Shown here in pieces: positions 27,459 to 37,675 of a DNA stretch of 64,000 nucleotides (the stretch's first letter is position 1; every line of letters begins with the position of its first letter). Source of the DNA: a virus (taxonomy: Duplodnaviria > Heunggongvirae > Uroviricota > Caudoviricetes); the IMG/VR virus record IMGVR_UViG_2585427708_000005; one strand, given 5' to 3'. Position numbers and translations under genes: made by a program. The notes beneath the pieces are model-generated. The model was not told where the DNA came from. It saw only the letters and a list, made by a program, of their open reading frames with translations, and ran no database searches.

Positions 27459-28502
27459 TTAACCTATTGCTACTGGTTTTAACAAACCAGCATCAAGTAG
27501 CTTGCGAGTTAACCACTGCTGGCCTTTACCCGTTAATTGGGGCGTCAGCCGTATCTGGTAGCCATTTTCATCATCCAGCACCACTTCTTTCACCGTGAAA
27601 TACCCGGCGTTGATGTACTGTTGGCGCGGTACGTTTTTGCGCGCTCCAAAAGCCATGAGAATGCCATTCTGGCGCAACCATGAGAAAAGGGCGTTTTGCT
27701 TAAGTCCAACGACCTTTGCAAAGTTCCCGATCAGGATTCCATTAGCCACTGATACCCGGTCGGCAAAATCGACTTTAGGGGCAGCGGCCACCAGCTGTTG
27801 TTCCAGCTGCATTTTCTGTTCTGCTAACTCGGCAGCCAGGCGTAGAGCTTCTGGTAATGTTTGGGGGATCGATGGGGCAGGGGAGTTTGCCTGCTGCAAT
27901 TCTTCCAGTTTGTCGATCAGCGAACGGCGGACCGCTTTTGACTCGCGCGCGGCGACTCGCAAGGCTTGTTTGTAGGTCATGGTGATGACCTCAAAAGAGC
28001 GCCCAGCCCTTGTGCCATGGGATTTTGCACTTTTTGTGTAAAATTCACCTTCAAGTTCATCGAGTATTTTTTCGATGAATTTATTGTTTCTAACCTCTGG
28101 TTCTCCACATAACTTGCGTGCCTCATTGACCATCTTCAACAATGTTTGGCTGTCGATTGTGTCTCCGGTGTTGGGGATGACATTCACGGCTGGTGTTGGC
28201 GTAGCTGACGTAACAGGTGCTGGTTTCTCAACATTCAAATTTTTACCGGTCACTCTATGTGCCTCCTTTCTCATTTCTGCTGCCACCGTTGCGTAACGTA
28301 GACGTCCTTGTTCAATCAAATAATCCCTGATCTCGGCTATCAGTAGCCTGTTGATCACTGCCTTATCTGTTCGGGTATAAAAACGCCTGGTTATCATGAA
28401 ATAGTTGGCAATTGCGCCGGGGATCTCCCGCGTCGGCATACAGGCAGTATGCAGGGCGATTGCTTCGGCTATGTCATTACGGGTGACGAGAGGTTTTTTC
28501 AT
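27459..28502 (-). CDS. ant: antirepressor Ant (AntA N-domain plus KilAC C-domain)
   Basis: 347 aa; start codon overlaps icd stop (translational coupling); C-terminal KilAC domain. Confidence 0.8.
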   Translation of the reverse strand: MKKPLVTRNDIAEAIALHTACMPTREIPGAIANYFMITRRFYTRTDKAVINRLLIAEIRDYLIEQGRLRYATVAAEMRKEAHRVTGKNLNVEKPAPVTSATPTPAVNVIPNTGDTIDSQTLLKMVNEARKLCGEPEVRNNKFIEKILDELEGEFYTKSAKSHGTRAGRSFEVITMTYKQALRVAARESKAVRRSLIDKLEELQQANSPAPSIPQTLPEALRLAAELAEQKMQLEQQLVAAAPKVDFADRVSVANGILIGNFAKVVGLKQNALFSWLRQNGILMAFGARKNVPRQQYINAGYFTVKEVVLDDENGYQIRLTPQLTGKGQQWLTRKLLDAGLLKPVAIG

Positions 28503-28720
28503 AAAACCCCCTGAACGTCGGCAGAGAAGGGGAGGTTCCAGTAACTAAGTGAATTGCGCGAGTTAGTTGAAAAACGGGCAGTAAAAATGCAGGGGCCATC
28601 AGGCAATTGAGAGCGTGCTTCGTCTTCAGTTGCTGCGATAACGAAGTGATAGTGGTGTTTTTTACAGGAATAGAAACGCCAGATGAATTCTGGGCGTGTG
28701 CAAGGATTGGCATTAACCAT
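28499..28720 (-). CDS. icd: Icd-like small protein (73 aa) upstream of ant
   Basis: 73 aa, coupled to ant; paralogue at 63667-63888; SD embedded in c4 target box. Confidence 0.6.
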   Translation of the reverse strand: MVNANPCTRPEFIWRFYSCKKHHYHFVIAATEDEARSQLPDGPCIFTARFSTNSRNSLSYWNLPFSADVQGVL

Positions 28721-28769
28721 AGTTACGGCCTCACTAACAGGTTTAACAACCTGCTACCCGCTGTCAAAC

Positions 28770-28850
28770 AGGTGGCAGGACGTGACAGGGTTGACAGACT
28801 GGCGTTAGTGAAACCAGCAGGCCGAAGCCTCCCCATCACGCCCCACCATA
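28770..28850 (-). ncRNA. c4: c4-like antisense RNA region of immI module 1 (boundaries approximate)
   Basis: contains boxes CACTAA and CTGTCA complementary to TTAGTG/TGACAG targets found upstream and at the icd RBS; conserved with module 2 except in these boxes. Confidence 0.35.
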
Positions 28851-29033
28851 ATTCGGGCGTAACGCGGTTTACGGACACAAAAATACCGCAATATCGGAAA
28901 TCTGCGGTTGTCCGCACTAACATTCAGGCTGTCAAACCCGGTCGCAGAATTTGCTACGACGGCGGAACTATAAGCCTGAACGATTAAAAGGTCAATATGA
29001 TGCGAAAAGATAGCATTCGTGACTTAAAAATAC

Positions 29034-29050
29034 AAATTTATTAGAGCATT
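29034..29050. promoter_or_regulatory. C1 operator-like site upstream of c4-icd-ant (Op51-like)
   Basis: AAATTTATTAGAGCATT, 16/17. Confidence 0.6.
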
Positions 29051-29146
29051 GTTTGTTTAATAAATGCACAATTGGATCTAATAACCTCTTTTTTTTAAAG
29101 GCGAAAATATGTACCCTAAATGAGTTATAAGGCAGGTGAGGTTATA

Positions 29147-29794
29147 ATGAGAAAACTATTACTACCGTTATTATTTATGGCTGGGACTGTTAATGCAGCA
29201 TCAAGCGTAAAGGAGATTTGTACCGATTATACGAAATACCTTGGGCACGTTTACGGCTTTGCTGTCAGTGAAGACGAATCCATGCGCAAGAAGTTACTGT
29301 CAGATATGAAGCGCCTTAAACTTTCTGAAGCGATGGTGCAGCAGGAACTGTATAAAGTCTCAACCAACGCAAATGCTAAATACCAATATTCTCGCCTATT
29401 AAACCCCGATGCAAATGAGATCAATCGAAGCACTTTCGATTATATGGTAAAGGCATGCGAAACCGCTCCTGATTTTGCTATCCCTAGCTGGGGTGTGCTG
29501 GTGGCGAGCAATGCCGTTAATAAAGAAGATGTTGGAAGAAATGGCATTGACTCAATCAGAAATGCCCCAGGAATGCGCCATCAAAACGTGCAGGGTACGC
29601 TTGAAGAGCGGGCCAGGGGGCCGGGTACAAACTCCCCAATGGGAAACCTCTCACCAGAGGAATTGCAAGAGTATAACCAACGGATGGAGCAGTATGAGAA
29701 AGCGGCACGCGAACAAATGGAACAACAAAAGAACGGCTCACTTAATACCTTCCAGCAAGGTTTAAAAGCGCTTAATTTACCCTATGAATGGTAA
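29147..29794 (+). CDS. secreted periplasmic protein, Sim-like by position (215 aa)
   Basis: signal peptide MRKLLLPLLFMAGTVNAAS; shares GMRxxxVQGTLEERARGxGT motif with Sit. Confidence 0.5.
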   Translation: MRKLLLPLLFMAGTVNAASSVKEICTDYTKYLGHVYGFAVSEDESMRKKLLSDMKRLKLSEAMVQQELYKVSTNANAKYQYSRLLNPDANEINRSTFDYMVKACETAPDFAIPSWGVLVASNAVNKEDVGRNGIDSIRNAPGMRHQNVQGTLEERARGPGTNSPMGNLSPEELQEYNQRMEQYEKAAREQMEQQKNGSLNTFQQGLKALNLPYEW

Positions 29795-29855
29795 ATATAT
29801 TATGGATAACCAATTAAAATATTGATAATCGTTAATATCCAAAGGAGATAAATTA

Positions 29856-30332
29856 ATGCGCATCAAACGATTTTTTCTAATTCTTGCTTTGCTTACTCCA
29901 TTTTCATCAATGGCAAATGTAAGCAAATGGTCAACCGGCGAGACTCATGGTGTTCGTTCTTATGCTGTTTCCAGCAAAGATAATTATACGCTTACATTTG
30001 AGTGCGATGTTGGATTTAATAATACGGATCCCAATCAAGTAGGAACACGACTACTCACTCTCATGAAAACAGAACCTGGCGGTGAGTCATTTGATGCTAA
30101 AAAAGAACAAATAACGCTGAAAGTTGGTGATGATGAATATCCTATCAGTTCTATCGGTTCCTCTGTTGGTGATAGTTACTGGTATGGTTTTTGGTCAGAT
30201 ACCCCTGATATGGAAGTTAAAACATTCGATGCATACGTAGACGGAAAAAAAATCGCAACATTTACGCTACGTAAGGCCGCAGAGCTTTTCAACGCGGCAC
30301 CTGAAGATGGCTGCCTGAAGCGCGCAAAATGA
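29856..30332 (+). CDS. secreted protein (158 aa)
   Basis: signal peptide MRIKRFFLILALLTPFSSMANV. Confidence 0.5.
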   Translation: MRIKRFFLILALLTPFSSMANVSKWSTGETHGVRSYAVSSKDNYTLTFECDVGFNNTDPNQVGTRLLTLMKTEPGGESFDAKKEQITLKVGDDEYPISSIGSSVGDSYWYGFWSDTPDMEVKTFDAYVDGKKIATFTLRKAAELFNAAPEDGCLKRAK

Positions 30333-30366
30333 CCTGTCACAAATGACTACTCGTAGAATCGGTTAA

Positions 30367-30957
<591 letters not shown>

Positions 30958-30967
30958 GGGGGCTGAT

Positions 30968-31579
30968 ATGGGGCTTAATGTTGCTTCAGTAAAGTCTTAT
31001 GTATCTTCGGCATTAACGACGACATTATTTGGCTCCGGCGTTGGTGAGCGGGAAGTTGGTAAGCTGACGTCAATCATCATGAACAAAATGCTGTTCGCGC
31101 AAGGATGGCAGTTCTCTGTCGAAGTTGATGGTCTGGAGGGGGCAGACTTCTTTGCCAAAGACATTACCTACCACGATTACAGCATCGAATATGAAACGAT
31201 TAAAATAGGCGGAGGGAATATCCTTCAGCCAACGGTGCGTTCGCCTGGGCAGATAACAATGATGGTCAGGGATACCGTTGATGGCCTCGTTTTGGACTGG
31301 TTTAAGACGGCAAAAGGTCGGGTGATCAATCCGGACGGTACCGGGAATATACCGTCTAAATATTTGCTCAATGTGCGTATTTATCGGTTGCTGTCCTCCG
31401 GTTTAACCAAACTGGAAAATGAGATGACGGTATTCCCGGTCACTACCGGCGATGTCACCTATGCGCGGGATCAGGTTACGGAATTTAAGTCATTCCCAAT
31501 GACCTTCGCATTGCACAGCACGTTTAACCAATCCTCAAGTTCTTTAGCTTCCCTTCTGGGCTTTAGTTTTTCTCTTTGA
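30968..31579 (+). CDS. tail tube protein candidate (203 aa)
   Basis: size and position immediately upstream of chaperone-like gene and tape measure. Confidence 0.45.
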   Translation: MGLNVASVKSYVSSALTTTLFGSGVGEREVGKLTSIIMNKMLFAQGWQFSVEVDGLEGADFFAKDITYHDYSIEYETIKIGGGNILQPTVRSPGQITMMVRDTVDGLVLDWFKTAKGRVINPDGTGNIPSKYLLNVRIYRLLSSGLTKLENEMTVFPVTTGDVTYARDQVTEFKSFPMTFALHSTFNQSSSSLASLLGFSFSL

Positions 31580-31593
31580 ATTAAGGAGCAAGG

Positions 31594-32475
31594 ATGCTTT
31601 TACCTCTTTTCCCGCTACCATCGCGGCCAACTGAATTGATCCAGTTCCGTCAGCCAAATATTGCTGATGCGATGCGTTTCAACTCGATAACACCGGAGGA
31701 ACAAGAACAACAGACAACGGCGTATTTAAAAGCCTTGCTGGCTGAACCCGCGAAACATGATCCCCTGACATGGACGGCGCAGGATCGGATTACCGCGTTA
31801 TGGTGGATATTTACCGGCTCCCGTGAAACACCGGTCGAGACATTCACCTACACCTGTAAACATTGCGGTAAAGAGCATTATTACGATTGCGATATGAATG
31901 CTCTGGCTGAAGATATCCAGGTCCTGGAAGTGGAACCGTTCATTGACGATATTGAGGTGTCTGTAGAGGGAGTGCCTTATCAATGGCGTATCGTGCCGCT
32001 TGATGGCTGGGCAATGGAAATGCTGGAGATGCGCCGTGCTGCATTGCCACCTGAAGACGACGCGGAATTCAAAGAAGCGATCGTTGATTTGCGTTTTTGG
32101 GAATTCGCTTATCAGTGTGAGCTTTATAACGATGTTAGCGGTACTCGTGAAGATCAGGCTGAGCGTCGTTATGAAACGATTAAACGGATGGCCATTGATA
32201 CTGAATTTATGAAGCTGGCGGCACACATCCGACTGGCTCATGAAAAGCTCGAACATGGTTTACCGTGCTACATCGATAAAGGTGAAATGCGTCTTCGTCT
32301 CCCGCCGCATAAATGCCCAAATCAGGATAAAAAGGAGTCCACAGAGGGTGCATATACCCGTCTGTGGGTGCCCTTTCGGGCTACCGACTTCATTCCACAG
32401 GTGGGGATTGAAAAGCTATCAGACCTTAGTGTCCAACCTGGTTTTGTATGGGGGTATACCGATTCAGGACGCTGA
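31594..32475 (+). CDS. hypothetical protein upstream of tape measure (tail assembly chaperone position), has CxxC pair
   Basis: 293 aa; CKHCG ... C ... C; 3' end overlapped by a +1-frame ORF reaching 32545. Confidence 0.5.
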   Translation: MLLPLFPLPSRPTELIQFRQPNIADAMRFNSITPEEQEQQTTAYLKALLAEPAKHDPLTWTAQDRITALWWIFTGSRETPVETFTYTCKHCGKEHYYDCDMNALAEDIQVLEVEPFIDDIEVSVEGVPYQWRIVPLDGWAMEMLEMRRAALPPEDDAEFKEAIVDLRFWEFAYQCELYNDVSGTREDQAERRYETIKRMAIDTEFMKLAAHIRLAHEKLEHGLPCYIDKGEMRLRLPPHKCPNQDKKESTEGAYTRLWVPFRATDFIPQVGIEKLSDLSVQPGFVWGYTDSGR

Positions 32476-32556
32476 AAGGCTTACTGAATCCTATGCGTTT
32501 TTCCTGTTGGAGAAACTGGAAGAAAAACTTAAACCGAAACGGTAGGCGATAAGATC

Positions 32557-35500
32557 ATGGAAAGAAAAAACGCCAACATTGACGATGTTATAAGGACAGT
32601 TGAAACCGCCAGCGCAAAAGAGCTGGAAGAGCTTGCAGGTATCCGGGAAGCTGTTGAAGATTTGAAAGGGGGACGCGTTGCAACTGTTGATCCTGTCTCT
32701 CGCAGTGTGTCGGCATTAAATCGCACAATCGAAAATTCCCGGCCAGACTTTGTGGCCAATGCGCCATCAGTGGACCCTATTGTTGAGGCAATGAAACGGC
32801 TTAATTTAGGGGACGTTCCTCGTGTAGTTCAGGAGGATGTTGCTCTACAGGAACCGCAGGCCAAATCAACTACGCGAAAGGGTAAAAAACGAGGCAGGAA
32901 GGCTATAACAGAAGATGTAAAGGCGCAACGGACCGAAGCAGCCGAACACGCCCGCGAAATGTTCGGTCAAAAAGGCGGTACGCAAAAAAGCCAAAACCAA
33001 CGCGATGCGCGTGGTCGTTTTATTGGAAAGTCAGGGAGTAAGGCCGCAGCGGAAGATGCCCGTGCTGAACGCGCTGAAAAGACCAGGCGCAAAGAGGATG
33101 ATGAGCGTCTAAATGCTGAATCAGGTTTATTAAAAAAACTGTCAAAAGTAGCTGAAGGTATAGGTAACCCTTCAGAGACTCGTGCCGTCGATGCTTTAGG
33201 TTATGCCGTTGCTGGCCCATTGTGGGCAGCGGGAAAAGAGCTTGGCGGGATATCAAAAGAAGTTGGCGGATCGCTTAATGGTGCCAGAAAGTCTATTGCC
33301 GATGTGATTCGTGGCAATGACGATAACAGCCGTAAAAAAGGTTTTTTTAGGCGTAAATCGCAAAGTAGTGCCGATGTCGTTCAGGTTAACACCCAAAAAC
33401 GGACGGTTCAGGAACTTCAGGATCAGACCAGCGAAATTAAAGAGGGCAATGACAAGATTCTCAGCGCCCTTGATCAGATAGCCAAAAACACCGGGAAAAA
33501 GAAGGGCGGCTTGCTGTCCAAATTATTTAGCCTGTTAGGGAAGGGGGCCGGTGGTATTGCCTCCCTTATTTTTGGCCGTGGGGCACTAAAGAAAGTTGGC
33601 TCGATGGCACTCGGCGCTTTAGGTATTAAGGGGGTAGGGAAACTAGGGATTAAGGCGGTCGCAAAAGGCGCTTTACGTGCAATTCCGCTAGTCGGCACGG
33701 TGGCTGGAGGTATCTATGATGCGGTAACCGGTTGGAATGATATAGAAGCGCAACGCCGAGCGTTTGGGCTTAAATCAGGACAAGATCCATCATTCCAGCA
33801 AAAAGCCGCTTATACGTTAGCTAATGTTCTTGATATGGGGGGACTGGTATCTGGTATTAGCAGCGCCATTGGTGAGGTTCTCAAATCACTTGGATTTGAG
33901 GATATCGGCAATATGTTGCAATCATTTTCGACGGAAAGTATTGCCCAGGCCATTGATAGCGGGGTTACCAACTTAGAAACATATATTTCTAATCTTGGCG
34001 ACACCATTTCTACCAAGTTCGATGATTATACAGCAAAGATTGGTGATGCTATTTCTGCATGGTTCAGTGACACCACAAAGAATCTGAACGAAAAATTAGA
34101 CGCCATCAAAAACTTCTTTACTGTCGATAACCTGAAACAGGTTTTCAGTGATGCAATTGATAGTGCAATTGATTTCATTAAGAATCCTGGGAAATACATT
34201 AAAGAGGCTGGCAGTAATCTATGGAGTGCCGCAAAAGAGCTTTCAGGTGAGGTTGCAGATGCCGCTGTTCAGAGCACCCCTGTGGCCTGGGTTGCATCAA
34301 AGCTAGTCAACAAAGCGGATGCGAAAGAGGTTACACCTGAATTAAAAACACCAGCTAAAGAAAGTCAGGAGGACAATGCTCCTAAGACTGAATATACCCC
34401 TAAAAAGGCTAATATTGTCACTCGTGTTGTAAATGCATCCCTAGATACGGCGAAAGATAGCAATAAAACAGTTAAAGAAACTGCCAATCAGATTATCAAT
34501 GCAAATGCCGTAGAAACGGGCAATCGCGCGTTGCAGAAAATTGATAATGCTATTGGTCAAAATAGCTCATCATCATCGTCGCTTAATACTACTGGCACCA
34601 GGAATGACATTCAGAAAGCTGCGGATACCTACAACAATGGCAACTTAGATGTAAAAGTCGGAAGCCTTGGCGCTGAAGGTAAGGCAAATCTCGATAAGTT
34701 GGCTCCGTATTTTGCTGAACTAGAGAATAAATATGGCCTTCCTGAAGGTACTCTTTACGCGATCGCTGCAACTGAATCTGGTGGTGATCCTAACGCAAAA
34801 TCTACGCTTACAAGATCACCAAATGGAAAGCTAAGTGGTGGCGCTCTCGGAATGTTCCAGTTTACGAGCGTTGCTCGTGAGGAAACTGGATTATCCCGGG
34901 AAGATTCTTTTAATCCGGAAAAATCGGCAGAAGCTGCGGCTCTTCTCATGAGCAAGTATCTGAAGCAAGCCAATGGAGACTTAAACGAGGCCATCACTGC
35001 ATATAACGCTGGGTTTGGCACTATCAATAAGTGGAAAAAAGGCACAGGTGACTTATCGAAAGAAAACCGTGAGTACGCGATCAAGGTCAATACTCATCGT
35101 GCTCGCTATTTGGGTGGTGAAATCTATACACCTGGAGCAGGAGCACAGGGTGGGGCGCAATATGGAGTGAGGGGACCACTGCCTGATAACGCCGTTATCG
35201 ATCAGTCTACTGGCCTGGCGTTTACCCCTGGTGATAGCCCGTTTGAGAAAGGCGGTCTGGTAGACAAAATCGGCAATGCTGTTGGCGTTAACGATCTGGT
35301 CAACAAATTCATGAATGGCCGGGGGATGCGTCGGGAAGTCGTTCAGGGAACCCTCGAAGAACGTGCACGAGGAAGGGGAACCGCAACGGCAGCTGGCAAT
35401 GTGTATGTTGATACACCTATGCCAGTTGAAGAGGCACGTCCGGTAGCAAACAACTCAAGTTACTTTGACCAACTCGGTGCACAAATGGGGATTGATGGGC

Positions 35501-35889
35501 TGTATGACAAACTCATTAATGCCCGGGGAATGCGCTCAAATAATTCTCCTCAACCAGCCTCCACGTCCCAGGTGACGACTGCCGCCAACGATTTGCAGCA
35601 ACCAACCGGTCGTATGCAGATAGACGGACAGGTTATTAGTGACCTTGGCGGCTCCGGTGCCAAGCCGACAATGCAGTTGGCTGATAATACCGTTTCACTT
35701 GATGGTGAAACGAAGCGGCTGTTTGCGCAGATGACCTCATTGCTTGCCAGGATTGAAGAGCACACTAAAGACTCGGCGAAAGGCCAGGGAACTGTCGTAA
35801 AGGTCAGCACGCCTCAACCGGGCGTTATGCGCACGGTGCCACTGTCAATTGATGATCCGTTGATGAATGACTACGCGAGAGTTGATTGA
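32557..35889 (+). CDS. sit: Sit-like tape measure protein with lytic transglycosylase domain
   Basis: 1110 aa; Gly/Ala-rich TM-like segment (residues ~330-390); SLT motif block (ESGGDPNAKS...GALGMFQF); size matches P1 Sit. Confidence 0.85.
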   Translation: MERKNANIDDVIRTVETASAKELEELAGIREAVEDLKGGRVATVDPVSRSVSALNRTIENSRPDFVANAPSVDPIVEAMKRLNLGDVPRVVQEDVALQEPQAKSTTRKGKKRGRKAITEDVKAQRTEAAEHAREMFGQKGGTQKSQNQRDARGRFIGKSGSKAAAEDARAERAEKTRRKEDDERLNAESGLLKKLSKVAEGIGNPSETRAVDALGYAVAGPLWAAGKELGGISKEVGGSLNGARKSIADVIRGNDDNSRKKGFFRRKSQSSADVVQVNTQKRTVQELQDQTSEIKEGNDKILSALDQIAKNTGKKKGGLLSKLFSLLGKGAGGIASLIFGRGALKKVGSMALGALGIKGVGKLGIKAVAKGALRAIPLVGTVAGGIYDAVTGWNDIEAQRRAFGLKSGQDPSFQQKAAYTLANVLDMGGLVSGISSAIGEVLKSLGFEDIGNMLQSFSTESIAQAIDSGVTNLETYISNLGDTISTKFDDYTAKIGDAISAWFSDTTKNLNEKLDAIKNFFTVDNLKQVFSDAIDSAIDFIKNPGKYIKEAGSNLWSAAKELSGEVADAAVQSTPVAWVASKLVNKADAKEVTPELKTPAKESQEDNAPKTEYTPKKANIVTRVVNASLDTAKDSNKTVKETANQIINANAVETGNRALQKIDNAIGQNSSSSSSLNTTGTRNDIQKAADTYNNGNLDVKVGSLGAEGKANLDKLAPYFAELENKYGLPEGTLYAIAATESGGDPNAKSTLTRSPNGKLSGGALGMFQFTSVAREETGLSREDSFNPEKSAEAAALLMSKYLKQANGDLNEAITAYNAGFGTINKWKKGTGDLSKENREYAIKVNTHRARYLGGEIYTPGAGAQGGAQYGVRGPLPDNAVIDQSTGLAFTPGDSPFEKGGLVDKIGNAVGVNDLVNKFMNGRGMRREVVQGTLEERARGRGTATAAGNVYVDTPMPVEEARPVANNSSYFDQLGAQMGIDGLYDKLINARGMRSNNSPQPASTSQVTTAANDLQQPTGRMQIDGQVISDLGGSGAKPTMQLADNTVSLDGETKRLFAQMTSLLARIEEHTKDSAKGQGTVVKVSTPQPGVMRTVPLSIDDPLMNDYARVD

Positions 35890-36245
35890 TGGCCAACAAT
35901 AACGAAATTGATCCTTTACTGACGCTGGAGTTATCCGGCGTAAAAACGTATGAGTCCCAGGAGGAGGCCTGGGGCGCTCGTTTATATGAGTGGCTGAACA
36001 CTTATCAGGGTGAGGTATACGGAGATCCGTCATGGGGCAATGTTTTACCGCAGTTTAAACACGAACCGACCAACTTGTCGCATGTTCAAATTGCGGTTGA
36101 GGCAATGCTGTTGCAAAAACTGACGGTAGATTTACCTGACATACCGATTTCTGGCTTGTCAGTAGCCGAGGGAGATGCTTTTGATAAGTTGAAAATATCC
36201 ATTCGTATCAGGGATATAACTATCACACAGGACGTGGTGCTATGA
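35886..36245 (+). CDS. hypothetical baseplate protein (119 aa), coupled to sit (ATGA overlap)
   Basis: overlapping start/stop; no motif. Confidence 0.5.
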   Translation: MMANNNEIDPLLTLELSGVKTYESQEEAWGARLYEWLNTYQGEVYGDPSWGNVLPQFKHEPTNLSHVQIAVEAMLLQKLTVDLPDIPISGLSVAEGDAFDKLKISIRIRDITITQDVVL

Positions 36246-37675
36246 GTAAAACAACACCGACTAAAGACAGTATTCGTGCAGAGTTTGAAGAGCTTGTCGA
36301 GAAAGATTCATTCTGGTCGAAGTTTGTCGGCTCTCAATTTGTCTCGATGCTGACATTGTTTATTACCCAGATTGTCTACAGGTGCTTTCAGTATGCCGAT
36401 GCGGCGCTGGCTGAAGGCTTTATATCGACCGCGACGCGGCGTTCCTCTATCCTGGCAGCGGCAGAAACGAATAGTTACGTTGGTACCAAGCCAACACCGT
36501 CATCGGGGATGATTGAGATCACCGCCACAAGTGAAGATGCCCCAGCGGTAATCCCCAAAAACATGCCTTTAATATCTGACGACCAGTACCCTTACATGAC
36601 TATGGATGTATGCAGGTTGGTTGACGGCACCGGTACGGTAGAAGTGGCACAGTTGGAAATCCAGGAGGTGACATATACCGTTACGGCAGCCAAAGAATTT
36701 CTGGAAGTCGTGTTATCAAAGGCTCTCACTGCTGTCTGCTATAAGCTGGAAGTATTCGTGACGACCGATGGTAAGACCACGCAGTGGTCTTCCAGCACTA
36801 TGTTCCGGTTAGCCGGTAGTAAAAGCCAGGTCTACGTTGAGTTTTATAAACCATCCGAGCAGTTGGGGGTTCGATTCGGCGATGGGCTAATTGGGCAAAT
36901 ACCGCCAGAAGGCTCGACCATTACGCTTAAGGTATGGTGCACCAACGGCGATATAACCCTGGTTGCTGGCCAAAACCTGACGCCTGTCGATTCTGCGGCT
37001 AATTTAGCTAATTTGATTTCAGTTAAGACAACGACACCTATAACCGCAGGTACCGATGCCGAAACAACGGAGATCACACGTAACCGTGCACAATATTACC
37101 TTGCCTATGATGATCAGGTCGTATGGGGCGGGGACTATACGTATTTTCTGGTGCGTAACATCCCGGGACTGTCATGGGTAAAGGCATGGGGCGAAGGCCA
37201 GCAAGAGAAATTAGATGGTGCTTATAATGTTCGGAATATCAATAAGATATTTATTTCAGGGTGGCATCCAAATAAAAGCCAGTCAGAGCTTGAAGAAATG
37301 ATCCTGGCTGCCTTTAAGAAGGTGCCGAATGAGTTGAACAAGAAATTCTCGTATAAAGAGGTCAGAAAACTCCCCTTTAAGATCACCATCACTGGGCGGA
37401 TATCGGCAAGCCTGACCATTGAGAATGTGACCGATGAGCTGAAGTCGGCACTGGAAACAAAATTTGGGCGCGACTCAACTTTCTTTGATCCGAACCGCGT
37501 CGGGAAGTACATCCTGATTAAGAAAAAAGACGTTTGGGCGTTTATCGAAACGCTGGGTTATTTCCGCGACTTTTATCTGGAATTTGTCGAGTGGAATGAG
37601 TCCAACGGCTTTTACGATTTCGTTTATCTGGATACAGAAAACTCCACCTTTAATATTTCGTATGAGGAGGAGTGA
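36242..37675 (+). CDS. baseplate protein candidate (477 aa)
   Basis: position and coupling (overlapping stops/starts) in baseplate operon. Confidence 0.5.
   Translation: MSKTTPTKDSIRAEFEELVEKDSFWSKFVGSQFVSMLTLFITQIVYRCFQYADAALAEGFISTATRRSSILAAAETNSYVGTKPTPSSGMIEITATSEDAPAVIPKNMPLISDDQYPYMTMDVCRLVDGTGTVEVAQLEIQEVTYTVTAAKEFLEVVLSKALTAVCYKLEVFVTTDGKTTQWSSSTMFRLAGSKSQVYVEFYKPSEQLGVRFGDGLIGQIPPEGSTITLKVWCTNGDITLVAGQNLTPVDSAANLANLISVKTTTPITAGTDAETTEITRNRAQYYLAYDDQVVWGGDYTYFLVRNIPGLSWVKAWGEGQQEKLDGAYNVRNINKIFISGWHPNKSQSELEEMILAAFKKVPNELNKKFSYKEVRKLPFKITITGRISASLTIENVTDELKSALETKFGRDSTFFDPNRVGKYILIKKKDVWAFIETLGYFRDFYLEFVEWNESNGFYDFVYLDTENSTFNISYEEE

What the first reader, a model, noticed from the sequence alone, without database searches (positions are those of the whole stretch)
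29570..29629. Secreted Sim-like protein shares a 17-residue motif with the Sit tape-measure/transglycosylase
The periplasmic protein encoded next to the c4 locus contains GMRHQNVQGTLEERARGPGT, and Sit (35320-35380) contains GMRREVVQGTLEERARGRGT; the DNA has diverged (synonymous changes) while the peptide is conserved, arguing for selection on the peptide. If this protein is a superinfection-exclusion factor like P1 Sim, the shared motif could be a processing or docking site copied from the injection protein.
Basis: seen in the sequence. Interest (0 to 1): 0.55.

Follow-up and report, generated by a model that had tools for sequence, protein, structure and literature searches.

The report
Secreted prophage protein mimics tape-measure motif
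A P1-like prophage encodes, at its superinfection-exclusion locus, an exported protein carrying a roughly 35-residue copy of a conserved stretch of the phage's own DNA-injection (tape-measure) protein, which suggests, still untested, that it blocks incoming related phages by molecular mimicry.

Summary
The ORF at 29147-29794 (215 aa, Sec-type signal peptide) and Sit (32557-35889) share one segment of about 35 residues (29546-29650 vs 35299-35403): 19/35 identical, with a core of 16/20. BLASTP gives E=5e-9 and profile-profile comparison gives E=3e-11.

Only 3 of 18 identical degenerate residues use the same codon, so the similarity is at the peptide level and not from recent gene conversion. 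A profile of the motif searched against 1.84 billion representative proteins hit only these two families.

In both families the motif is an island of conservation. AlphaFold2 predicts it to be disordered in both.

The protein is not a homologue of Sim (SimC). It is the full-length form of SimA. P1's 52-aa "SimA" is its 5' remnant, and one divergent phage keeps long simA, simB and simC together.

Motifs from the same genome resemble each other more than motifs from different genomes (15.0 vs 13.4 of 23; exact permutation 12/5040).

Best reading, inferred and untested: a periplasmic decoy that shows Sit's linear motif to whatever Sit must engage during genome delivery, giving superinfection exclusion. 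The partner and the phenotype are unknown. I found no published description.

The parts
29034..29082 (+). C1 operator Oc4 (29034-29050) and predicted sigma-70 promoter PsimA (29056-29082), by transfer from the P1 annotation
   Evidence: P1 features at L001 2535-2551 and 2557-2583. The window and P1 are nearly identical here, with offset window = L001 + 26499. The promoter is a prediction in the P1 record and was not tested here. My own consensus scan did not list it.
29147..29794 (+). simA-long CDS (215 aa + stop). An upstream in-frame ATG at 29120 is the start used for P1 simA.
   Evidence: ORF list and translation. RefSeq homologues start at MRKLLL. Belongs to phrog_3933, function unknown. 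Annotated as hypothetical protein in the 100% identical plasmid NZ_CP027590.1.
29147..29197 (+). Sec-type signal peptide MRKLLLPLLFMAGTVNA, predicted cleavage before ASS; no lipobox cysteine
   Evidence: Read from the sequence. N16, A17 and S19 are invariant across 27 homologues. No signal-peptide predictor was available.
29198..29536 (+). Folded all-helical N-terminal domain (residues 18-130) with two invariant cysteines (C25, C104) and an invariant IPSW
29546..29650 (+). Sit-like linear motif in SimA-long (residues 134-168: IDSIRNAPGMRHQNVQGTLEERARGPGTNSPMGNL); core NAPGMR...RGPGT at 29561-29629
   Evidence: hhalign E=2.9e-11, BLASTP E=5e-9. Core conservation in the family is 0.68, against 0.61 for the N-domain and 0.13 after the motif. 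pLDDT is below 50 across most of residues 134-168 (134-150, 152-156, 158-168).
29654..29770 (+). Variable C-terminal helical tail (residues 170-208); replaced, truncated or exchanged for a Cys-containing module in other family members
   Evidence: Helices 170-197 and 201-208, pLDDT about 64-77. Alternative C-termini.
29856..30332 (+). Companion gene: 158-aa secreted protein; its homologues in related loci carry Pfam YfjT hits
   Evidence: Translation. phrog_3429, function unknown. PF27224:YfjT is recorded on the homologues at this position in related loci. It accompanies SimA-long in 53 fetched loci.
32557..35889 (+). sit: tape-measure protein / injection transglycosylase (1110 aa)
   Evidence: About 96% DNA identity to the P1 sit region. 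Pfam SLT E=1e-25 at residues 718-837. Role as P1 tape measure and essentiality from PMC9024508 and PMC10695390.
34708..35067 (+). SLT lytic transglycosylase domain of Sit (residues 718-837)
   Evidence: Pfam PF01464. AlphaFold2 is confident for Sit residues about 701-855.
35299..35403 (+). The motif in Sit (residues 915-949: VNKFMNGRGMRREVVQGTLEERARGRGTATAAGNV); core at 35314-35382
   Evidence: Present in every Sit recovered. Core conservation is 0.72 against flanks of 0.26 and 0.03-0.18. pLDDT is below 50.
35488..35535 (+). Second, partial copy in Sit (GIDGLYDKLINARGMR, residues 978-993): helix plus N-x-R-G-M-R, without the VQGTLEERARG half
   Evidence: It lies in a roughly 45-residue insertion found only in E. 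coli P1-type Sit.
28768..28853 (-). c4 antisense RNA (context: immI operon, divergent from simA-long)
   Evidence: Rfam RF01695, 68.8 bits.

Best explanation
SimA-long is a Sec-exported periplasmic protein encoded at the prophage's superimmunity (sim) locus. Between a folded helical domain and a variable tail it carries a disordered linker. That linker displays a copy of a short linear motif, consensus N-x-[PR]-G-M-R-x-[QE]-x-V-x-G-[TS]-[LM]-x-E-R-A-[RY]-G-x-G.

The same motif lies in the disordered region just after the SLT domain of Sit, the protein ejected first from the tail into the periplasm.

Proposed mechanism: in a lysogen the periplasmic copy competes with the incoming Sit for whatever that motif must bind during genome delivery. 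The partner could be a host envelope protein, a tail-tip protein, or Sit itself. The result would be that infection by P1-like phages stalls after adsorption, which is superinfection exclusion by motif mimicry.

Shown here: the shared motif, selection on it at the peptide level, its restriction to these two families, its predicted disorder, the export signal (read from sequence), and the locus.

Inferred: expression in the lysogen, competition, and the exclusion phenotype.
For: 1. Significant shared segment limited to about 35 residues.
2. Synonymous sites are saturated in six lineages while the peptide is kept. Selection acts on the peptide in both proteins.
3. It is an island of conservation in both families: Sit core 0.72 against flanks 0.03-0.26; SimA core 0.68 against 0.13 downstream.
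4. The motif profile finds only Sit and SimA-long among 1.84e9 representatives, apart from one repetitive artefact.
5. Both copies lie in low-pLDDT regions next to confidently folded domains, as expected for a linear binding motif.
6. Same-genome SimA/Sit motifs are more alike than cross-genome ones: 15.0 vs 13.4 of 23, exact permutation 12/5040. In the distant phage L090/L091 both copies changed G-T-L-E to G-S-M-A without sharing codons.
7. Signal peptide and invariant Cys pair.
8. The locus is P1's sim locus and shares its operator/promoter region. In L086 long simA sits in one operon with simB and simC homologues.
9. Export separates the decoy from cytoplasmic tail assembly, so it need not poison the prophage's own virions (inference).
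10. Sit is essential and the sim genes are dispensable for P1 lytic growth (PMC10695390).
Against: - No phenotype is known for any long SimA.
- In P1 the Sim phenotype is attributed to simC (Maillou & Dreiseikelmann 1990, as cited in PMC2409434). P1 works with only a SimA stump.
- Type B family members keep N-x-P-G-M-R but lack the VxGTLxERARG half.
- L049/L005 carry a degraded copy.
- The same-genome excess in similarity is modest and rests on 7 lineages, two of which share identical sequences.
- The binding partner is unknown, and P1 host-factor screens report mainly LPS genes and dnaJ (PMC7553319).
- The promoter is only predicted. My own consensus scan did not list it.
- Low pLDDT may reflect shallow alignments (17 and 9 sequences).
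Confidence: 0.4

Rival explanations
1. Shared address tag rather than a competitor. The motif binds an envelope component (peptidoglycan or a periplasmic or membrane protein) and simply places both proteins at the same spot. The active part of SimA-long is its folded N-domain. That domain could, for example, inhibit Sit's transglycosylase as T4 Spackle inhibits gp5 lysozyme, or block channel formation.
For: The N-domain is as conserved as the motif (0.61 vs 0.68) and is confidently folded, so it is unlikely to be a mere carrier. Type B members keep the N-domain plus only N-x-P-G-M-R. The motif is adjacent to the SLT domain in Sit.
Against: The N-domain has no detectable relative, including among solved immunity or inhibitor proteins. 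Nothing shows that the motif binds the envelope. This reading explains same-genome covariation less directly, unless the bound component also varies.
Confidence: 0.25
2. Common processing site. Both proteins are cut at or near G-M-R by the same periplasmic or envelope protease. This could release the SLT domain from the rest of Sit after ejection and could mature SimA-long. SimA-long may or may not act as a competing substrate.
For: The most invariant element is the short N-x-x-G-M-R. It occurs twice in P1-type Sit. It lies in disordered linkers. A natural 163-aa variant ends 3 residues after the motif.
Against: A cleavage site rarely needs 20 or more conserved residues, including VQGTLEERARG. 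No protease with this specificity is known to me. The P1 virion proteomics text I read gives Sit's full-length mass (120.6 kDa) and does not mention Sit processing (PMC9024508).
Confidence: 0.1
3. The motif has a biochemical role shared by both proteins, but SimA-long is a lysogenic-conversion (moron) protein serving the host or the prophage in some way unrelated to phage exclusion.
For: The sim locus is a recognised hypervariable cargo region of P1-like phage-plasmids (PMC9603915). It holds unrelated secreted proteins and lipoproteins in other members. There are no PADLOC hits.
Against: The motif occurs nowhere else in 1.84e9 proteins except in the phage's own injection protein, and it tracks the cognate Sit. 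Long simA is linked to simB and simC in L086.
Confidence: 0.15
4. Inert relic. A fragment of sit was once recombined into simA and persists without function.
For: The sim locus is recombination-prone. Breakpoints lie inside simA and right after the motif.
Against: Synonymous sites are saturated while the peptide is conserved. The motif is retained in homologues that are only 45-60% identical overall and in a distant lineage, while everything downstream diverged to 0.13 identity.
Confidence: 0.05

Closest known systems
P1 SimA (P1_gp043, 'putative superimmunity accessory function')
   Same: Same locus and the same upstream operator/promoter DNA. Over the first 48 residues of the mature-start protein (MRKLLL...), tblastn against P1 gives 85% identity.
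   Different: P1 SimA is a 52-aa stump. Homology breaks inside the gene where the simB-simC cassette begins. It lacks the helical domain and the Sit-like motif. The window's gene is the complete form (215 aa).
P1 Sim / SimC superinfection-exclusion protein
   Same: Encoded at the same locus, with an N-terminal hydrophobic leader. Named as the superinfection exclusion gene in PMC2409434. From memory of Kliem & Dreiseikelmann 1989, it acts after adsorption and before the DNA becomes established. SimC co-occurs with long SimA in L086.
   Different: No sequence similarity (E=28), no GMR/QGTLEERARG motif, and a different PHROG.
T4 Spackle (Sp), periplasmic inhibitor of the tail lysozyme gp5
   Same: A small exported phage protein aimed at the cell-wall-degrading component delivered by a contractile tail. 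Likely the same stage of action (from my own knowledge).
   Different: No sequence or fold match was found in the PDB searches. As far as I know, Spackle is not reported to share a peptide with its target. Inhibition of Sit by SimA-long is untested.
Exclusion proteins linked to the tape-measure protein: TP-J34 Ltp and HK97 gp15
   Same: Prophage-encoded envelope proteins that block DNA injection through the tape-measure protein (from my own knowledge; not tested here).
   Different: Ltp is a lipoprotein and gp15 an inner-membrane protein. SimA-long has a signal peptidase I-type signal without a lipobox. Neither is known to mimic a segment of the tape-measure protein.
Linear 'boxes' in disordered translocation domains of colicins (TolB box, TonB box)
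   Same: A short conserved peptide in a disordered region of a protein that crosses the envelope, used to engage a periplasmic partner. This is an analogy for what Sit's motif may do (from my own knowledge).
   Different: No sequence resemblance, and the partner of the Sit motif is unknown.

Membership tests
P1 SimC (Sim) exclusion protein family | Sequence homology to SimC | tested here: not met
   BLASTP best E=28. Different PHROGs: 3933 vs 14355.
P1 SimC (Sim) exclusion protein family | Encoded between c4 and pmgC, exported precursor | tested here: met
   Locus synteny with P1. Signal peptide read from the sequence.
P1 SimC (Sim) exclusion protein family | Confers exclusion of superinfecting P1 | not testable with these tools
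   Needs plating, transduction or DNA-entry assays.
SimA family (phrog_3933; 'simA domain protein') | Homology to P1 SimA and to database 'simA domain' proteins | tested here: met
   85% identity to P1 SimA over the first 48 residues, by tblastn. 28 homologues, some named 'simA domain protein'. phrog_3933 E=5e-136.
SimA family (phrog_3933; 'simA domain protein') | Same promoter-proximal position, divergent from c4 | tested here: met
   DNA is nearly identical to P1 up to the break inside simA. C4 RNA lies at 28768-28853.
Short linear motif (mimicry) in a disordered region | Short conserved island flanked by poorly conserved sequence | tested here: met
Short linear motif (mimicry) in a disordered region | Lies in an intrinsically disordered segment | tested here: inconclusive
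   pLDDT below 50 in both models. The alignments are shallow and pLDDT is only a proxy for disorder.
Short linear motif (mimicry) in a disordered region | Similarity maintained by selection rather than recent copying | tested here: met
   3 of 18 identical residues share codons in the window, and 2-6 of 13-15 in the other lineages.
Short linear motif (mimicry) in a disordered region | Both copies bind the same partner | not testable with these tools
   No complex prediction or binding assay was available.
Spackle-like periplasmic inhibitors of tail muralytic enzymes | Structural or sequence relation to Spackle, or demonstrated binding to the muralytic domain | tested here: not met
   No significant PDB or BFVD match. 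Binding was not testable.
Lipoprotein exclusion factors (Ltp, Llp, Cor type) | Lipobox with Cys at +1 | tested here: not met
   The cleavage region is VNA|ASS with no cysteine.
Pfam PF14566 PTP-like phytase (weak hit) | Score above the gathering threshold, C-x5-R catalytic loop, alpha/beta PTP fold | tested here: not met
   25.7 bits against a cutoff of 27. No C-x5-R in the sequence. The model is all-helical.

The most novel reading that the evidence does not exclude
SimA-long would be the first superinfection-exclusion factor that works by mimicking a linear motif of the invader's tape-measure protein. The motif would be the docking peptide through which the ejected Sit engages a still unknown envelope partner needed for P1 genome delivery. 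The shared peptide would then serve directly as bait to identify that partner.
Probability: 0.3. Interest if true: 0.8.

Novelty: new variant of a known kind. Interest (0 to 1): 0.6.

Why it matters
Two questions about P1 remain open. The sim locus was defined in the 1980s, but I know of no worked-out mechanism for how it excludes phage. How P1 gets its DNA across the periplasm is also unknown: Sit is unresolved in the cryo-EM work (PMC12810830), and host screens give mainly LPS genes (PMC7553319).

A 23-35 residue peptide under selection in both the injection protein and an exported prophage protein gives a concrete handle on both. It can be mutated in either protein and used as bait.

If the mimicry reading holds, it adds a new principle to phage-phage exclusion: decoy display of the invader's own linear motif, kept away from virion assembly by export.

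It also corrects an annotation. P1 'simA' is a gene remnant. The complete gene is present in 114 complete E. coli genomes, against 463 that carry a P1-like sit (about one in four), and it is labelled 'hypothetical protein'.

Tried and rejected
- Homology to SimC: none.
- Pfam PTP-like phytase hit: below threshold, no catalytic loop, wrong fold class.
- Recent gene conversion between sit and simA: rejected by codon comparison in six lineages. Only L080 has a short identical 5' stretch.
- Strict one-to-one covariation: not seen. SimA keeps ...ERARG where non-P1 Sit has ...ERAYG. Only a statistical same-genome excess exists.
- Whether other sim-locus cassette proteins (SimB, SimC, the two RCS47 cassette proteins (FDJ53_gp105/gp106), the 158-aa family, and others) also copy pieces of virion proteins: no matches in the window.
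- Genomic context of the informative variants P0028 and P0047: contigs too short. Solved for the P0047 lineage through P0049/L091, which overlaps L090.
- PADLOC: no defence-system match.
- The P1 genome paper (PMC523184) is not held, so I could not check whether it comments on SimA or Sit similarity. Full-text searches found no mention.
- The genome-contig scan added only 4 loci.

Full report
**Context.** The window is a P1-like phage-plasmid (Punavirus), in reverse orientation relative to the P1 reference. The stretch 28000-36500 is 95-96% identical to P1 and relatives, except at the sim locus. The local gene order is kilA, ant1/2, icd, c4 RNA (Rfam C4 at 28768-28853, minus strand), then on the plus strand the ORF of interest, a 158-aa ORF, pmgC, tub, pmgB and sit. 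The SimA and Sit segments are 100% identical to plasmid NZ_CP027590.1 of E. coli 2014C-3011, where the ORF is annotated 'hypothetical protein'.

29570-29629 encodes GMRHQNVQGTLEERARGPGT. Sit encodes GMRREVVQGTLEERARGRGT at 35323-35382.
- Pairwise BLASTP gives E=5e-9.
- tblastn against the whole window gives E=9e-8.
- A PHROG profile of Sit-like proteins matches the small protein at residues 127-171 with E=4e-8.
- Profile-profile comparison of the two families returns a single 35-column match, probability 97%, E=2.9e-11: SimA 134-168 (29546-29650) against Sit 915-949 (35299-35403), 19/35 identical.

Nothing outside this segment is detectably related.

**The similarity is at the peptide level.** The two DNA segments are 60/105 identical. 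Of 18 identical residues with degenerate codons, only 3 use the same codon, where 5.8 would be expected from independent draws on local codon usage. The same holds in five other phage lineages, with 2-6 shared codons out of 13-15. Recent gene conversion is therefore excluded, and the peptide is held by selection in both genes. No overlapping ORF or RNA constraint could give this pattern.

**What the small protein is.** It is not related to SimC, the P1 exclusion protein (E=28; SimC sequence). tblastn shows that its first 48 residues are 85% identical to P1 SimA. P1 SimA reads MSYKAGEVIMRKLLLPLLFMAGTVNAASSVKEICTDYTKYLGHVYAFAINDY*.

At the DNA level the window and P1 are nearly identical through the C1 operator Oc4, the predicted PsimA promoter and the start of the gene. 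They then diverge abruptly inside the gene, where P1's simB-simC cassette begins. So P1 'simA' is the 5' remnant of a longer gene, which I call simA-long.

A divergent P1-like contig (L086) keeps a long simA (179 aa, with the motif) followed by simB (59% identity) and simC (44% identity) homologues. The long gene therefore belongs to an intact sim operon in at least one lineage.

The sim region is a recognised hypervariable region of P1-like phage-plasmids (PMC9603915). In other members it holds unrelated secreted proteins.

**Anatomy of SimA-long.**
- The likely start is ATG 29147, which gives a classical signal peptidase I signal (MRK, a hydrophobic core, VNA|ASS) with no lipobox. N16, A17 and S19 are invariant.
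- AlphaFold2 with a 17-sequence alignment gives a confident all-helical domain (pLDDT 88-96 for residues 21-120). Most of residues 134-168, including the motif, have pLDDT below 50. A moderately confident C-terminal helix spans 170-208.
- Two cysteines (C25, C104) are invariant. This would fit a periplasmic disulfide, but that is an inference.
- A sub-threshold Pfam hit to PTP-like phytase is rejected: no C-x5-R loop and the wrong fold class.

**Family survey.** Homologues occur only on P1-like elements of Escherichia, Salmonella, Klebsiella and Cronobacter and on related metagenomic contigs. All full-length members keep N-[AS]-[PR]-G-M-R-[HQ]-Q after the helical domain. What follows then splits the family:
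- Type A continues x-V-x-G-[TS]-L-x-x-R-A-R-G-x-G, as in Sit.
- Type B continues P-S-x-x-S-x-x-F-K-x-C.

Downstream of the motif the family is hypervariable. One finds a coiled-coil-like tail (this window), a stop 3 residues after the motif (the 163-aa variant in at least 16 loci), or a Cys-containing module.

Mean pairwise identity among eight type A members is 0.61 in the N-domain, 0.68 in the motif core and 0.13 after it.

Among the fetched loci, which are enriched for SimA N-terminal homologues:
- 48 carry type A plus the 158-aa companion;
- 5 carry type B plus the companion;
- at least 21 carry the P1-type remnant with simB and simC;
- L086 carries type A with simB and simC, and L049 carries type A with simC.

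In complete E. coli genomes, simA-long DNA is found in 114 of 5426, against 463 with a P1-like sit 3' end.

**The motif in Sit.** Every Sit recovered has it.
- E. coli P1-type: NGRGMRREVVQGTLEERARG[KR]GT.
- Salmonella, Klebsiella and D6-like types: N[SGA][RP]GMR[HQE][EQ]xVQGTLAERAYGxGT.
- A distant metagenomic lineage: NAPGMRHQVATGSMADRAYGMGT.

Among ten diverse Sit proteins the motif core has mean pairwise identity 0.72. That compares with 0.53 overall, 0.26 just before it and 0.03-0.18 just after it, and is about as high as the SLT domain. It lies about 80 residues after the SLT domain (Pfam residues 718-837).

AlphaFold2 folds the SLT domain confidently and nearly all of what follows, including the motif, has pLDDT below 50.

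P1-type Sit has a second, partial copy (GIDGLYDKLINARGMR, residues 978-993) inside a lineage-specific insertion. It shares the helix plus N-x-R-G-M-R half only.

Sit is the P1 tape measure, carries the tail's muralytic activity, and is essential (PMC9024508, PMC10695390). It was not resolved by cryo-EM (PMC12810830).

**Exclusivity.** A profile built from the two 41-residue window segments was searched against 1.84 billion representative proteins. It gave 10 hits at E<=1e-3. All are Sit or SimA-long family members or fragments, except one repetitive protein with MLEERTRGHG repeats that I regard as spurious. No solved structure contains the motif. No other sim-locus cassette protein matches any protein of the window.

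**Covariation.** For seven lineages where both proteins come from the same phage, I compared the 23-residue cores. Same-genome pairs share 15.0 residues on average and cross-genome pairs 13.4. Only 12 of 5040 permutations reach the observed value.

The clearest case is the distant phage represented by L090 (Sit) and L091 (SimA). These two contigs are 100% identical over 5.6 kb of overlap. There simA lies at a different genome position, not beside pmgC-sit. Both motifs read G-S-M-A where other lineages have G-T-L-[EA], and they use different codons.

The effect is modest. Two lineages share identical sequences. SimA keeps ERARG where most non-P1 Sit proteins have ERAYG. I therefore treat this as supportive, not decisive.

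**Mechanism.**
- Shown: an exported protein at the superimmunity locus and the tail's first-ejected protein share a linear peptide. It is selected in both, predicted disordered in both, and found nowhere else.
- Inferred: the periplasmic copy competes with the incoming Sit for the motif's partner and thereby blocks genome delivery. Export keeps the decoy away from cytoplasmic tail assembly, so the prophage does not poison its own virions.

I give this 0.4. The main rival (0.25) is that the motif only co-localises SimA-long with Sit, and the helical domain does the work, for example inhibition of the SLT domain as Spackle does for T4 gp5. A shared protease site (0.1), a function unrelated to exclusion (0.15) and an inert relic (0.05) follow.

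Against the favoured model:
- there is no phenotype for any long SimA;
- P1 manages with a stump, and its exclusion maps to simC (as cited in PMC2409434);
- type B members lack half the motif;
- the partner is unknown;
- expression in the lysogen rests on a predicted promoter that my own scan did not list.

**Comparison with what is known.** It works most like the exclusion proteins that act at injection: T4 Spackle, TP-J34 Ltp, HK97 gp15 and P1 Sim. It is a member of none of them, because homology, lipobox and fold tests were not met. It is a member of the SimA family, as its complete form. Display of the invader's own tape-measure motif has, as far as I could find, not been described (searches; the P1 genome paper could not be read). 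One paper notes in passing that D6-like prophage variants differ both near simB and in sit (PMC6799933).

**Verdict.** This is a real, statistically solid and evolutionarily maintained shared motif. The docking or mimicry idea is plausible and now sharply testable, but it remains unproven.

Noticed in passing
window 29120-29290 vs P1 (L001 2621-2779): P1's annotated 52-aa simA is the 5' remnant of the 215-aa gene. Homology to the window stops abruptly inside the gene, where the simB-simC cassette starts. L086 keeps long simA, simB and simC together.
   Followed up: yes
window 35488-35535 (Sit residues 978-993): Second, partial copy of the motif in Sit (GIDGLYDKLINARGMR). It lies inside a roughly 45-residue insertion present only in E. 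coli P1-type Sit. It has two allelic forms among loci (LINARGMRSNNSPQP and LRNSPGMRKNNAPEP).
   Followed up: partly
window 29856-30332: A 158-aa secreted protein (phrog_3429). Its homologues at this position in related loci carry Pfam YfjT (PF27224) hits. It accompanies SimA-long in 53 fetched loci, with homologues at 28-64% identity in other cassettes. Function unknown.
   Followed up: partly
L004, L007, L033-L045 (e.g. L004 1501-1992): A common 163-aa SimA variant ends 3 residues after the motif (…RGPGVAP*), followed by a different cassette that includes an SH3-domain protein. A recombination breakpoint sits exactly at the motif's end.
   Followed up: partly
window 32557-35889 vs P1 sit (L001 6281-9703); loci: The Sit-containing reading frame varies from about 1020 to 1271 residues among P1-like loci (these lengths may include a few residues upstream of the start codon). 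The window's Sit (1110 aa) is 30 residues shorter than P1's (1140 aa), and the two diverge in the glycine-rich hydrophobic segment near residues 340-400. For a tape measure this could mean different tail lengths or a variable channel-forming segment.
   Followed up: no
L090 / L091 (metagenomic scaffolds, same phage): A distant P1-like phage has simA-long at a different genome position: next to replication and methylase genes, about 10 kb from the tail genes and on the opposite strand. Its motif still matches its own Sit (GSMA in both).
   Followed up: yes
P0007, P0008, P0017, P0024: Several database 'proteins' of 194-205 aa are frameshifted readings of simA-long, mostly from read-level assemblies. 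They could be sequencing or assembly artefacts or real pseudogenes.
   Followed up: no
L080 10436-10456 vs 16735-16755: In one Salmonella lineage the first six or seven codons of the SimA and Sit cores (N-S-R-x-M-R-H) are almost identical at the DNA level, unlike the rest of the motif. This may be a short conversion tract or chance.
   Followed up: no
L003 2236-2748 (RCS47): The sim-locus gene annotated 'DNA methyltransferase' in RCS47 translates to a 170-aa lipoprotein-like sequence (…LLSGC…) with a glycine-rich repeat. The annotation looks wrong.
   Followed up: no
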